Assembly (NCBI RefSeq): GCF_009914755.1 | Contig: NC_060926.1 | Origin: the human T2T-CHM13v2.0 reference genome, Homo sapiens | Length of the DNA stretch: 64,000 nt | Direction: 5' to 3' (one strand) | Translations under genes and position numbers: made by a program | Shown: positions 942 through 4,013 of the stretch, piece by piece | Layout of the letters: the number at the start of each line of letters is the position of its first letter | Position numbering within the stretch: position 1 is the stretch's first letter | Notes under the pieces: generated by a model | Seen by the model: the letters and a program-made list of their open reading frames with translations, nothing else | Database searches by the model: none | What the model was told of the DNA's origin: nothing

Positions 942-1746
942 TGGAGCATGTATTCTTTTATGAGTGGTCCTTCTTCTGTGGCACTGTACACAGTGCTAAG
1001 GGAAGACTTTTCTGTCTTTCCTTCTACACTCCCAGATTCTCACTGGGCTAGGTGTCCCTTTTATAAGCTCCCATTTAACTCTATGCTGTTATTGTTGCCT
1101 CTACACTTACCCCTTTCAAAGTATGACCCCTTGTACTTAAAAACAGACCTTTTTAGGTTTAGCTGTGTCTTGATCCAAAGAACCACACTTACCAGAGTAT
1201 GTTAGTTTTAGAGTCATCTAGGAGCTCAGCATAATACCAAAACCACACCTTTTGGTAATCTTGGACTGTAACAGAAGGCAAGAATTATAATAGGATCTCA
1301 CAAACCTTCTCCCACCCACCATGATGAGCTATTTGTAGATCCTTAGTGGCTCTTAAGTATTCTCCCAAGTGTTGAGTTGTGAGTAGCCTGCACATAATGG
1401 CGTTCAATACTGAGAATAGCTACTCAGCTCTGAGCATCCATCCTTTTTCTCACCATTGGCATTCCTGGTGGCACAGTGGCTTCTATCACTCTCTCTGGCT
1501 TGCCTCAGCTTTGATTCTGTCCATTCAATTCTCATTTCCGCCTTGTCTGTCACAGGGTTAGGCTTATGGTAATGAAGAAATGCTCTGTCCTTAGCCAGAG
1601 ATTGGTGTAAGTTAAAAGATGCTGTGAGCGGTAAAACAAACAACATTTAGGCAGATATTAGTTATTATTATTATCTTCAGAGCTCAATATATTTCTGTCT
1701 GTATTTTTAAGGTTTAGATCAGAGTTTTAAAATTAGGGCCATAACC

Positions 1747-2043
1747 TTTTTTGTTTTTTGAGACGGAGTTTCGCTCTTGTTGCCGAGGCTGGAGTGCAAT
1801 GGTGCAATATTGGCTCACTGCAAACTCTGCCTCCCAGGTTCAAGTGATTCTCCTGCCTCAGCCTCCCGAGTAGCTGGGACTACAGGCACGTGCCACCACG
1901 CCCGGCTAATTTTTGTATTCTTTAGTGGAGATGGGGTTTTACCATGTTGGCCAGGCTGGTCTCGATGTCCTGACCGTGGGTGATCTGCCTGCATTGGCCT
2001 CCCAAAGTGCTGGGATTACAGGCATGAGCCACCATGCCCGGGC
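1747..2043 (-). mobile_element. AluS (Sq/Sp-like) element
   Basis: Diagnostics gagtttcgctcttgttgcc and gcaatgg. TSD agggcca(t/g)aacctt at 1735-1748 and 2045-2058. Confidence 0.92.
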
Positions 2044-3237
2044 AAGGGCCAGAACCTTGAAACCACTTGCTAGGGTGTTTGTAGAATGGAGTGGAGGCTG
2101 TGGTGAAACTGTCTAAAGTGCTATGCATGTGTGCCTAGGTGCATTCATCCACCCACTCATACAAATATTTGTAAACGCTTGCTATGTTTTAAGATGTGTT
2201 TAGGGGAGTTTGTGCTGCTCATTTTTTAAAGAGCGGGAACTCTTTGGTAGTTACAATATTAAAAGGATAGACATCCACTCTGAGTAGTTCTGGATCATTT
2301 CTGGAGTTCTTTTTTCAAATATGTCTAAGTAAAACACACCATGTCAAAATACCAGGCTGAGCTGCACACTTGCAGTGAGACAGGATGGAAGACCGAGGAT
2401 TCCACCAGGTCAGGACGCATCTTTGTTACCTTTGCAGAGGTTCTCTAGCACCTCTAGATCTCTGCATGATCTAGTTTGAAAACTCCTCCTCTAGACTATG
2501 ACAAAGTTAAAAAAAAAAAAAAGTGATTCCCTAGGCTTTCCTGTCATAAAAATTGAGAGGCAGACGTTTTTCTTTTAAATGAGTTTTCTGTTTTAGCAAA
2601 TAGAAGCTATTATTTATAGCTTAGTTAAATGTTTTAAATCGCCAAACCTCCGTACCTCTTTCCTATAGAGATTAGTTCATGGAGGGAGTTATGAAAAACA
2701 TCAGTTAATGATAATGATATAGTGGACTTTCAGGAGATGAGAAACTTATTTTGAATACCCACTGCTAGGTAGAAGTTTGACCTTTGCATGTACATCCAGA
2801 AAGGATGGTGGTGTATGCCATCAGCCTTGTGGTTTATAAATATTAGTGATGTGGTCTGAATGCTTTAATAAAAACAAATGAATCAAAGGGGTAGGTCTGT
2901 CTTTATTGTTTGGGATTAAAAAAATAATAATCATACATTCATATATTCTTTTCATACTTTTAAGAAACAAAAAGGCAATTCTGCTAAATTATAATTTTAT
3001 TGTACATTTAAAATGCAGATTTTAAAAACTCAAATTGTGCTTTTTAGTAACTAATAATTTAAGAACTCTTTCTGATCCTCCCCTACTTTTCCAACCTTCT
3101 TTTCTTGCCTAATGTTAGGAAAACCAAATTGAAGATGCCTGCATTTTGAACAGGTTGAACTTGTGGCCTTGGCTATAATTGTCACTTCATAATCTATTTT
3201 TGATTTTAATCTTATTATTATAACTTTCTTTTTACAG

Positions 3238-3312
3238 ACTGGTGAATTTTCAGCTCGTTTCCTTTTGAAGCTGCCCGTAGATTTCAGCAATATCCCCACA
3301 TACCTTCTCAAG
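3238..3312 (+). CDS. BABAM2: Internal coding exon (75 nt, phase 0/0) of BABAM2/BRE/BRCC45, probably exon 6
   Basis: Acceptor tttctttttacag| at 3237 and donor AAG|gtaaaa at 3313. It translates to [25 protein letters not shown], matching the BRE segment ...[38 protein letters not shown]... as I recall it. The exon number is from memory. Confidence 0.96.
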
Positions 3313-3685
3313 GTAAAAATATATGATTTTCAGTATGAGAATATAAGTGAGCTTTTTAAGTAATTATTTAACTCAATATTTGTATGACTGGTTTGTCAGC
3401 ATTTTGTTCAGATGATGAATTCTATTAAAAATATTTCTTACATGAAGTTCCATTGAGCTGTTTTGCTACCTAAAAGCTAAAATAGTAACTGTGAAAGTCA
3501 TTTAGAAGTGAGTTTTCCATATTAAAATAAAATTATTATAAGTGAATTAAACTTTGGGAAAAATCGCTTTTATTTAATAATGTTACTGGAATGAAAGACT
3601 CTCATATAAATTACCTAATATGCAATATTAGTCACCACTCCATTCTGCAAACACCCTAGCCACTGCCTTCGAGGTTCTGGCCCTT

Positions 3686-4013
3686 GGCCGGGCGCGGTGG
3701 CTCATGCCTGTAATCCCAGCTTTTTGGGAGGCTGAAGTGGGCGGATCACCTGAGGTCAGGAGTTTGAGACCAGCCTGGCCAACATGGTGAAACCCTGTCT
3801 CTACTAAAAAAAATAGACAAATATTAGCCGGGCATGGTGGCAGGCTCCTATAATCCCAGCTACTCGGGAGACTGAGGCAGGAGAATCGCTTGAACCTGGG
3901 TGGCAGAGGTTGCAGTGACCCAAGATCGAGCCACTGCACTCCAGCCTGGGTGATAGAGTGAGACTCCATCTCAAAAAACAAAAAACAACAGATAAAAAAC
4001 AAACAAACAAAAA
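3686..4013 (+). mobile_element. AluSx-like element
   Basis: Starts ggccgggcgcggtggctca, full dimer, A/CAAA tail. No TSD found. Confidence 0.92.

What the first reader, a model, noticed from the sequence alone, without database searches (positions are those of the whole stretch)
1735..4013. Inverted Alus around the BABAM2 exon share 51 bp of non-Alu flank
Seen: 2044-2094 (aagggccagaaccttgaaaccacttgctagggtgtttgtagaatggagtgg) aligns ungapped at 45/51 with the reverse complement of 3635-3685. Each copy directly abuts the 5' end of an Alu. The shared block includes the right TSD of the upstream Alu (agggcca[t/g]aacctt, 1735-1748 and 2045-2058), so it is native upstream and was copied downstream. 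The downstream Alu lacks a TSD, and the right-arm diagnostics differ (Sq/Sp-like vs Sx-like), which argues against duplication of the whole element. Inference: a template switch, either the new Alu cDNA invading the neighbouring inverted Alu during insertion or repair within an Alu-Alu fold-back, ran past the Alu end and copied unique DNA. The result is a stem of about 350 nt with a locus-specific inner extension, closing a loop of about 1.5 kb that holds the exon.
Basis: partly seen in the sequence, partly recalled or inferred. Interest (0 to 1): 0.8.

Follow-up and report, generated by a model that had tools for sequence, protein, structure and literature searches.

The report
Inverted Alus sharing copied unique flank
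Two oppositely oriented Alu repeats on either side of a BABAM2 exon carry the same 51-56 bases of unique DNA at their heads, an old copying accident that lengthened an ordinary Alu-Alu RNA stem; it is real but of modest importance.

Summary
2044-2094 matches the reverse complement of 3635-3685 at 45/51, and 48/56 out to 2099/3630. Each copy abuts an Alu 5' end. The block occurs nowhere else in the T2T genome.

It contains the upstream Alu's right target-site duplication (1735-1748 vs 2045-2058, 13/14) plus one extra base at the junction. So the upstream copy is native and the downstream one is derived.

In a panel of 100 Alus the two elements fall into different recurrent right-arm classes (position 153; position 244, a 1-nt insertion and position 272, which are linked). 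Their bodies are no more alike than random AluS pairs.

- **Best reading (about 0.45):** a reverse-complement template switch, guided by Alu homology, ran off the upstream Alu's 5' end into 56 nt of flank.
- **Not excluded (about 0.3):** the whole unit was copied in inverted orientation and the right monomer was later converted. Both tails start A6CA6, and a weak TSD-like 14-mer follows the downstream tail.

Primate orthologues, which would decide, were not available. The block adds about 50 base pairs to an Alu-Alu stem that closes a 1,530-nt loop holding the exon. This is a known kind of event, and interest is low to moderate.

The parts
1735..1748 (.). Left (3'-side) target-site duplication of the upstream Alu
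   Evidence: AGGGCCATAACCTT vs 2045-2058 AGGGCCAGAACCTT, 13/14
1749..1762 (-). A-rich tail of the upstream Alu. It reads A6CA6 on the minus strand, and its last As overlap the start of the TSD
1763..2043 (-). Upstream Alu body (AluS-type). It carries the linked right-arm signature T244 / +A insertion / A272, with C153
   Evidence: masked 1741-2045 in the hub's table
2044..2099 (+). Native unique block. It comprises one extra base at the Alu 5' junction (2044), the right TSD (2045-2058) and 41 nt of intron. This is the source of the downstream copy
   Evidence: 48/56 to the reverse complement of 3630-3685; single-copy in the genome apart from its partner
2100..3629 (+). 1,530-nt spacer (the loop) between the arms
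   Evidence: coordinates; no significant collinear inverted homology beyond the block
3238..3312 (+). BABAM2 coding exon (75 nt) inside the loop
   Evidence: hub annotation; AG at 3236-3237 and GT at 3313-3314
3630..3685 (-). Derived inverted copy of the block, including the copy of the upstream TSD (3672-3685) and the extra junction base (3685)
3686..3972 (+). Downstream Alu body (AluS-type). Its right arm is of a different class: G153, C244, no insertion, G272
3973..4013 (+). A-rich tail of the downstream Alu. Its first 13 nt (A6CA6) are identical to the upstream tail
   Evidence: (I5)
4014..4027 (+). [quoted passage not shown] Its status is uncertain
   Evidence: 193/20000 (12-mer) and 44/20000 (14-mer from 4012) random windows score as well. 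No resemblance continues into the further flank (37-nt test, 2777/20000)

Best explanation
This is a fossil of one DNA-templated, reverse-complement copying event between two neighbouring, oppositely oriented Alus.

**Shown**
- The upstream Alu (minus strand) inserted first by ordinary target-primed reverse transcription, leaving a 14-nt TSD.
- The downstream Alu (plus strand, 1.6 kb away) is an independent insertion of another AluS class, at least from position 153 to its 3' end.
- The downstream block is a copy of the upstream junction.

**Inferred**
- A growing DNA strand that ended in Alu sequence at the downstream site paired with the complementary strand of the upstream Alu. That strand was either the first-strand cDNA of the inserting downstream Alu, or a nascent or repair strand within an already resident downstream Alu.
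- It was extended off the upstream Alu's 5' end through the extra junction base, the TSD and 41 further bases of intron (56 nt in all).
- It then let go and was joined back at about 3629/3630 without homology.
- This overwrote or removed the downstream Alu's own 5' TSD.
- The event is about as old as the Alus themselves.

The lasting product is an inverted repeat about 56 bp longer than the Alus. In the BABAM2 pre-mRNA it adds about 50 pairs at the loop-proximal end of an Alu-Alu duplex that encloses a 75-nt coding exon.
For: - **The block is real and unique.** It matches at 45/51 and 48/56, and is found only at these two places.
- **It starts exactly at both Alu 5' ends** and includes the upstream TSD plus the same extra base. 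So the junction itself was copied, from upstream to downstream.
- **The right arms are of different, recurrent classes.**
  - T244, the +A insertion and A272 are linked in 7 of 24 scored S-like Alus, including the upstream one. C244, no insertion and G272 occur in 14 of 24, including the downstream one. Three are mixed and 16 of 40 could not be scored.
  - In a separate regex scan of 93 hits, the insertion together with the AAAC motif occurs in 8.
  - At position 153 the upstream Alu has C and the downstream has G; the panel is C41/G31/T24.
- **The two bodies are not unusually alike.** Non-CpG divergence is 28/229 = 12.2%. The median of 780 S-like pairs is 10.6%, and 81% of those pairs are closer. 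Shared CpG decays number 5, about what independence predicts (my count and arithmetic).
- **Timing.** Flank divergence is 6/51 = 11.8% (JC 0.128). Each Alu's own non-CpG distance from the panel consensus is 17/229 and 14/229. So the event dates to about the time of insertion.
- **No ungapped TSD downstream**.
- **Mechanistic precedent (passages read).**
  - Template switching between pre-existing imperfect inverted repeats creates or perfects inverted repeats (PMC5453318).
  - L1 cDNA intermediates recombine with homologous DNA once homology is >=25 bp (PMC13526784).
  - Non-classical L1 insertions carried 4-312 bp of extra DNA at 15 of 21 loci, and SDSA from neighbouring DNA was considered (PMC1920257).
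Against: - **The tails match.** Both begin with the identical A6CA6. That is 0 of 86 panel tails exactly and 3 of 86 loosely, and 1 of 38 other ends with a recognised body end. Tails of independent insertions should be unrelated.
- **A TSD-like 14-mer follows the downstream tail.** It weakly resembles the upstream TSD (nominal p about 0.002-0.01, from 9 related tests chosen after seeing the sequence).
- **Together these hint that tail and outer TSD were copied too**, which a one-sided switch does not explain.
- **No switch point can be shown.** The left arm has no informative non-CpG diagnostic, and left and right divergence are equal.
- **The ancestral state of the downstream site is unknown.**
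Confidence: 0.45

Rival explanations
1. Whole-unit inverted duplication followed by conversion. A break at the downstream site was repaired by fold-back or templated synthesis that copied the entire upstream unit in reverse complement: 41 nt of flank, TSD, Alu, tail and the outer TSD (about 365 nt, 1735-2099). Later the right monomer of one copy was replaced by gene conversion from a third Alu of another class.
For: - The tail starts are identical (A6CA6).
- A TSD-like 14-mer sits directly after the downstream tail.
- Divergence of the Alu bodies (12.2% non-CpG) equals that of the flank (11.8%).
- Partial conversions that swap one monomer are the commoner form in print. 38 of 52 reconstructed AluS/AluY loci were partial, giving hybrids such as an AluS 5' monomer with an AluY 3' monomer (PMC8230782, passages).
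Against: - It needs two rare events. Only 98 clear conversions were detected among about 54,000 orthologous Alu loci (PMC8230782, passages; type-changing cases only).
- The conversion must span at least positions 153-272 yet spare the tail.
- The copy would have to end exactly at the outer edge of the TSD. No homology continues into 1700-1734 vs 4028+.
- A 28-nt A-rich stretch separates the shared tail start from the TSD-like 14-mer.
- No private upstream substitution is shared by the downstream Alu.
Confidence: 0.3
2. RNA-level origin. Either a transcript that began at least 56 nt upstream of the upstream Alu was retrotransposed (5' transduction), or the reverse transcriptase copying the downstream Alu's RNA jumped to such a transcript.
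For: - The block is contiguous with the Alu 5' end, as in 5' transduction.
- Switching of the L1 reverse transcriptase between RNAs is documented (L1-U6 chimeras and a GPD2 mRNA fragment, PMC1920257, passages).
- A T4 run follows the outer TSD on the Alu strand.
Against: - No TSD brackets block plus Alu (8/12).
- The right arms are of different classes, so the two are not parent and daughter.
- No other copy of the block exists in the genome.
- The source lying only 1.6 kb away in cis would be a coincidence for an RNA route.
- From recall: Alu transcription by RNA polymerase III starts at the element's first base.
Confidence: 0.07
3. An older inverted repeat of unique DNA (at least 70 nt) flanked the exon before any Alu arrived. 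Two different Alus then inserted independently at the same nucleotide of each copy, each making its own TSD.
For: - It explains the different Alu classes.
- It explains four copies of the 14-mer: two good, one good inverted, one weak.
Against: - It still needs an unexplained inverted duplication, plus two hits at the same base in the same relative orientation.
- Both junctions have the same extra base between TSD and Alu, which is absent from both 3' copies.
- The repeat would have to end exactly at the outer TSD edge.
- The putative downstream TSD pair is far more decayed (gapped, 7/12 ungapped) than the upstream pair (13/14).
Confidence: 0.05

Closest known systems
Template-switch mutations in replication or repair (the classic inverted-repeat model and the four-point model; PMC5453318, passages read)
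   Same: A nearby segment is copied in reverse complement. A pre-existing imperfect inverted repeat guides the switch. The product is a new or longer inverted repeat that can fold as an RNA stem.
   Different: - The events described there are short-range, and candidates were filtered at a copied fragment of 14 bp or more.
- Here the guide is a pair of roughly 280-bp Alus 1.6 kb apart, and at least 56 nt of unique DNA was copied.
- 'Alu' does not occur in the main text of that paper or of PMC7954356.
Recombination of retrotransposition cDNA intermediates with homologous genomic DNA, and non-classical insertions carrying extra DNA (PMC13526784 and PMC1920257, passages read). Chimeric L1s formed with a resident L1 are recalled from Gilbert et al. 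and were not seen here.
   Same: A nascent retroelement strand uses homology to a resident element. Non-element DNA (4-312 bp) is attached at the insert's end. TSDs are lost.
   Different: - Those data are for L1, in cell culture or for recent human-specific insertions.
- Here an Alu is involved and the partner is inverted.
- The outcome is a short templated copy, not a deletion or translocation.
- Whether the event was coupled to insertion at all is unknown.
Alu-Alu gene conversion giving hybrid elements (PMC8230782, passages read)
   Same: One Alu donates part of its sequence to another, producing hybrids at the scale of a monomer.
   Different: As described there, conversion stays within Alu homology. 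Here the copied tract leaves the Alu and takes 56 nt of unique flank including a TSD.
Inverted Alu pairs flanking exons that form intronic RNA duplexes (PMC13019944, passages read; PMC11263572, listing only)
   Same: Inverted Alus lie in the two introns around an exon, within about 1.2 kb and 0.4 kb of it, and are predicted to form a long duplex.
   Different: - The duplex here continues about 50 pairs beyond the Alu borders into locus-specific sequence.
- No splicing, editing or circular-RNA data for this exon were examined.
- BABAM2 is not named in the main text of PMC13019944.

Membership tests
Alu SINE (both elements) | About 280-nt dimeric body with an A-rich linker and a 3' A-rich tail, with many dispersed copies | tested here: met
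The downstream element finds 27 HSPs in the window and 139 in 314 kb. Both align over 275 consensus columns. Tails lie at 1749-1762 and 3973-4013.
Alu SINE (both elements) | Flanking target-site duplication | tested here: inconclusive
   Upstream: 13/14 (met). Downstream: 7/12 ungapped (not met) plus a weak gapped resemblance. 28 of 78 panel Alus also lack >=10/12.
Template-switch mutation (four-point model) | The inserted segment is the reverse complement of a nearby segment | tested here: met
   3630-3685 is the reverse complement of 2044-2099 at 48/56, 1.5 kb away
Template-switch mutation (four-point model) | Comparison with an ancestral or outgroup sequence shows that one event explains the change, and which sequence was replaced | not testable with these tools
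   No primate genomes are held. The genome search holds only the window's own assembly and prokaryotes.
Simple inverted duplication of the whole Alu unit | The two copies descend from one element, so they share subfamily diagnostics along their whole length | tested here: not met
   They differ at position 153 and at the linked trio of 244, the insertion and 272. Each matches a different recurrent class. This can be rescued only by a later conversion.
Retrotransposon 5' transduction | A TSD and an endonuclease-type site bracket flank plus element, and the daughter matches the parent element | tested here: not met
   There is no TSD around 3630-4013 (8/12), and the right arms are of different classes
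   There are 2 places in the genome for each of three queries. The other similar 5' flanks in the panel are Alu tails.
Exon-flanking inverted-Alu RNA duplex | Inverted Alus in the upstream and downstream introns are able to pair | tested here: met
   Cofold of the two arms gives 300 intermolecular pairs with the block and 250 without. ddG is -326.5 vs -271.9 kcal/mol. This is an in-silico result on isolated arms only.
Exon-flanking inverted-Alu RNA duplex | A measurable effect on exon skipping, back-splicing or A-to-I editing | not tested
   No expression or editing data are available here

The most novel reading that the evidence does not exclude
Inverted Alu pairs may not be static. Their stems may grow past the Alu borders at either end through repeated homology-guided template switching. 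Here that would mean 56 nt at the inner end, and possibly the tail plus TSD at the outer end. Such growth would create locus-specific double-stranded RNA extensions. These could be retained because they tighten the loop around an exon, or change ADAR or hnRNP access. If general, many 'Alu-Alu' duplexes would carry unannotated non-Alu extensions, and repeat-masked analyses would miss them.
Probability: 0.1. Interest if true: 0.6.

Novelty: new member of a known kind. Interest (0 to 1): 0.3.

Why it matters
If the reading is right, this locus is a clean natural example of Alu homology steering a template switch that copies unique DNA. The same class of error is invoked for Alu-mediated rearrangements in disease, seen here at small scale and fixed in the germ line.

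In practice, the pairing potential around this BABAM2 coding exon is about 20% larger than repeat annotation suggests (300 vs 250 predicted pairs). Surveys that define intronic duplexes by RepeatMasker borders would underestimate such stems. As a single ancient locus with an unresolved mechanism, it does not open a long-standing question.

Tried and rejected
- **Multicopy repeat or old interspersed repeat under the block.** Rejected: each of three queries finds only the two places. The tool's caveat is that common words are skipped and only the best candidates are scored.
- **Homology continuing inward past 2099/3630.** The only signal is a non-collinear 17-nt inverted match (2153-2169 / 3375-3391, 16/17). 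It beat 300 shuffles but is A/T-rich and offset by 186 nt. I do not count it as part of the block.
- **Homology continuing outward past the TSD.** None found: 13/300 shuffles score as well, and the best hit is non-collinear. The anchored 37-nt test gave 2777/20000.
- **Using overall identity to decide between parent-daughter and independent origin.** Uninformative. The upstream Alu is only the fifth-closest full-length or nearly full-length match to the downstream one in the window (83.3%, against 86.2, 84.7, 84.6 and 83.5). Both scenarios predict about 12% non-CpG divergence.
- **Locating a switch point from the contrast between left and right arms.** No contrast exists (11/98 vs 14/114).
- **A first regex classification of right-arm sites.** It mis-anchored on the left arm and was discarded. 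It was redone from the alignment.
- **A larger Alu panel.** One 50-kb request was granted, so the panel stayed at 100 Alus.
- **Literature.** Seven searches were answered and one further call (9) failed on a term format. None of the papers listed describes this locus or an Alu pair sharing copied unique flank. The only paper holding BABAM2, circRNA and Alu together (PMC8368758, one occurrence each) was seen as a listing only.
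Full report
**What is there**

The window is chr2:28,086,001-28,150,000 of T2T-CHM13 (hub note; one search places it at G000:C2).
- The upstream Alu lies on the minus strand: body 1763-2043, tail 1749-1762.
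- The downstream Alu lies on the plus strand: body 3686-3972, tail 3973-4013.
- Between them are 1,642 nt of intron and the 75-nt BABAM2 exon at 3238-3312.
- The repeat finder joins the two Alus as inverted arms. One ungapped arm pair, 1918-2099 / 3630-3811 (182 nt, 84%), runs straight out of the Alus into the flanks.

- 2044-2094 against the reverse complement of 3635-3685 gives 45/51. The match continues to 48/56 at 2099/3630 and then stops (48/60).
- The binomial chance is about 3.5e-19. No other place in the window reaches 30/51 on either strand.
- Both copies start at the first base outside the Alu 5' end.
- Queries of 71 nt (2040-2110), 457 nt (2044-2500) and 366 nt (3320-3685) against the whole 3.1-Gb assembly each returned two places: the query itself and the partner block at 87-88%. 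The tool states that it scores only the best candidates and skips very common words. Within that limit, the block is not a dispersed repeat and not a common Alu 5' extension.
- As a local control I compared the 50 nt in front of 123 Alus with intact 5' ends (314 kb; 7,503 pairs), anchored at the junction. The upstream-downstream pair is the top pair (44/50). The runners-up (38-41/50) all have another Alu's 3' end, or left arm plus A-run, as their flank.

**Direction of copying**

- The upstream Alu has a clean TSD: 1735-1748 against 2045-2058, 13/14.
- The right-hand TSD copy lies inside the shared block.
- The downstream block repeats it, including the G that distinguishes the right copy from the left. 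It also repeats the single extra base that separates the TSD from the Alu's first G at both junctions.
- A TSD arises at the site of insertion, so the upstream arrangement is native. The downstream block is a copy made after the upstream Alu had inserted.

**Are the two Alus copies of each other?**

I built a panel of 100 near-full-length Alus: 98 others plus these two. They came from the window, 200 kb upstream of it and 50 kb of C19. They give 275 consensus columns, 46 of them at CpG sites.

Divergence:
- Upstream against downstream: 28/229 at non-CpG sites (12.2%) and 20/46 at CpG sites.
- Upstream against the panel consensus: 17/229.
- Downstream against the panel consensus: 14/229.
- The flank differs at 6/51 (11.8%, JC 0.128).
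- The median non-CpG divergence of 780 pairs of S-like panel Alus is 10.6%, and 81% of pairs are closer than this pair. So the bodies show no special kinship.
- Both hypotheses predict about 12%, so this does not decide between them.
- Left arm and right arm do not differ: 11/98 against 14/114 non-CpG.
- The only shared non-consensus states are five CpG decays and C65, a common class state. Five is what independence predicts (my arithmetic).

Diagnostics are more telling:
- The upstream Alu carries T244, a one-base A insertion and A272 near its 3' end.
- In the panel these three go together. Of 40 S-like Alus, 24 could be scored.
  - 7 have all three, including the upstream Alu.
  - 14 have none, including the downstream Alu.
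  - 3 are mixed.
- A separate regex scan gave 8 of 93 hits with both the insertion and the AAAC motif, 2 with the insertion only, and 79 with neither. The remaining 4 were left-arm hits.
- At position 153 the upstream Alu has C and the downstream has G. Both are common panel states: C 41, G 31, T 24.
- Each element matches a haplotype that recurs in unrelated Alus. C153 with the trio occurs in 5 including the upstream Alu. G153 without it occurs in 3 scored including the downstream Alu.
- So from position 153 to the 3' end, the downstream Alu is not a plain copy of the upstream one. The names Sq/Sp/Sx are recalled labels that I did not test.

**Evidence pointing the other way**

- Both tails begin with the identical A6CA6. 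The exact 16-mer shared with the last three body bases beat 300 of 300 shuffles.
- The tail pattern is rare in the panel:
  - 0 of 86 panel tails exactly.
  - 3 of 86 under a loose pattern.
  - 1 of 38 other 3' ends when the body end is strictly recognised.
[quoted passage not shown] 193 of 20,000 random windows score as well for the 12-mer, and 44 of 20,000 for the 14-mer starting in the tail. These are the best of nine related tests, chosen after I had seen the sequence.
- Nothing continues beyond it (37-nt test 2,777/20,000; outer-flank local alignment 13/300).
- Taken together, these hints suggest the tail and outer TSD might also have been copied. I report them as unexplained under my preferred reading.

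**Downstream TSD**

There is no ungapped TSD: 7/12 at the Alu junction, or 8/12 if the block is counted as insert. By contrast 50 of 78 panel Alus reach 10/12 or more, and 37 of 386 mismatched controls do. Absence is therefore mildly informative only.

**Mechanism**

The secure core is this: one event copied the upstream Alu's 5' junction in reverse complement to the head of the downstream Alu.

My preferred version (0.45) is a switch guided by Alu homology.
- A strand ending in Alu sequence at the downstream site paired with the inverted upstream Alu.
- It was extended 56 nt past that Alu's 5' end, and was rejoined without homology at about 3629/3630.
- That strand may have been the inserting Alu's cDNA or a replication or repair strand; I cannot tell which.

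Passages I read support each ingredient:
- Template switching between imperfect inverted repeats makes or lengthens inverted repeats (PMC5453318).
- L1 cDNA intermediates recombine with homologous DNA from 25 bp of homology upward, and mismatch repair suppresses this (PMC13526784).
- Non-classical L1 insertions carried 4-312 bp of extra DNA at 15 of 21 loci, and SDSA from neighbouring duplex DNA was discussed (PMC1920257).

The main rival (0.3) is a whole-unit inverted copy followed by a right-monomer conversion.
- Monomer-scale hybrids are the commoner form of Alu conversion (38 of 52 reconstructed loci).
- Conversions are rare, however: 98 clear cases among roughly 54,000 loci screened (PMC8230782, passages).

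An RNA route (0.07) and two insertions into an older inverted repeat (0.05) fit less well, for the reasons given under the rivals.

**Consequence**

On isolated arms, ViennaRNA cofold gives the following:

| Arms folded | Intermolecular pairs | ddG (kcal/mol) |
|---|---|---|
| Alu bodies only | 250 | -271.9 |
| Alu bodies plus block | 300 | -326.5 |
| Block alone | 50 (of 56 nt) | -69.9 |
| Next 56 nt inward (control) | 21 | -4.4 |

- The loop is 1,530 nt. The exon lies 1,138 nt from the upstream arm and 317 nt from the downstream arm.
- Inverted Alus around exons are associated with exon skipping (PMC13019944, passages). BABAM2 is not named in that paper's main text.
- I examined no expression, editing or circular-RNA data.

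**Age**

A JC distance of 0.128 between the two blocks is about 6% per lineage, similar to each Alu's own distance from the consensus. With recalled primate neutral rates this means some tens of millions of years. That is an inference, not a measurement.

**Verdict**

- The feature is real, locus-specific and correctly read as to direction.
- The template-switch interpretation is the best available but is not demonstrated.
- The kind of event is known.
- Primate orthologues would settle the order of events and could not be consulted with these tools.

Noticed in passing
window 2153-2169 and 3375-3391: A 17-nt inverted match (16/17, CCACTCATACAAATATT vs its partner) inside the loop, 63 nt downstream of the exon's 5' splice site on one side. 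It is not collinear with the shared block (offset about 186 nt) and is A/T-rich. It scored above 300 of 300 shuffles.
   Followed up: partly
window 1749-1762 and 3973-3985; L024 (C19), minus-strand hit at offset 7581: Three Alu tails start A6CA5 or longer: the two studied here and one unrelated chr19 Alu of the same right-arm class as the upstream element. This may reflect a tail pattern inherited from a source gene rather than copying.
   Followed up: partly
window 4022-4039: An 18-mer (TGGCCTCCCTCTGTGCTG) just after the downstream tail matches the antisense Alu segment at 1995-2012 at 15/18 (D5). It overlaps the weak TSD-like stretch. It could be chance or a scrap of Alu-derived sequence.
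   Followed up: no
window 2510-2523: A run of 14 A within the loop, with no recognisable retroelement body next to it in the read.
   Followed up: no
window 3808-3830: The A-rich linker of the downstream Alu is expanded and interrupted (AAAAAAAATAGACAAATATTAGCC) compared with the panel consensus. It shares nothing with the upstream linker.
   Followed up: no
window 22236-22507: The Alu in the window closest to the downstream element (86.2% over 276 nt, with the same G153 / C244 / no-insertion / G272 haplotype). It is closer than the upstream partner is (83.3%).
   Followed up: partly
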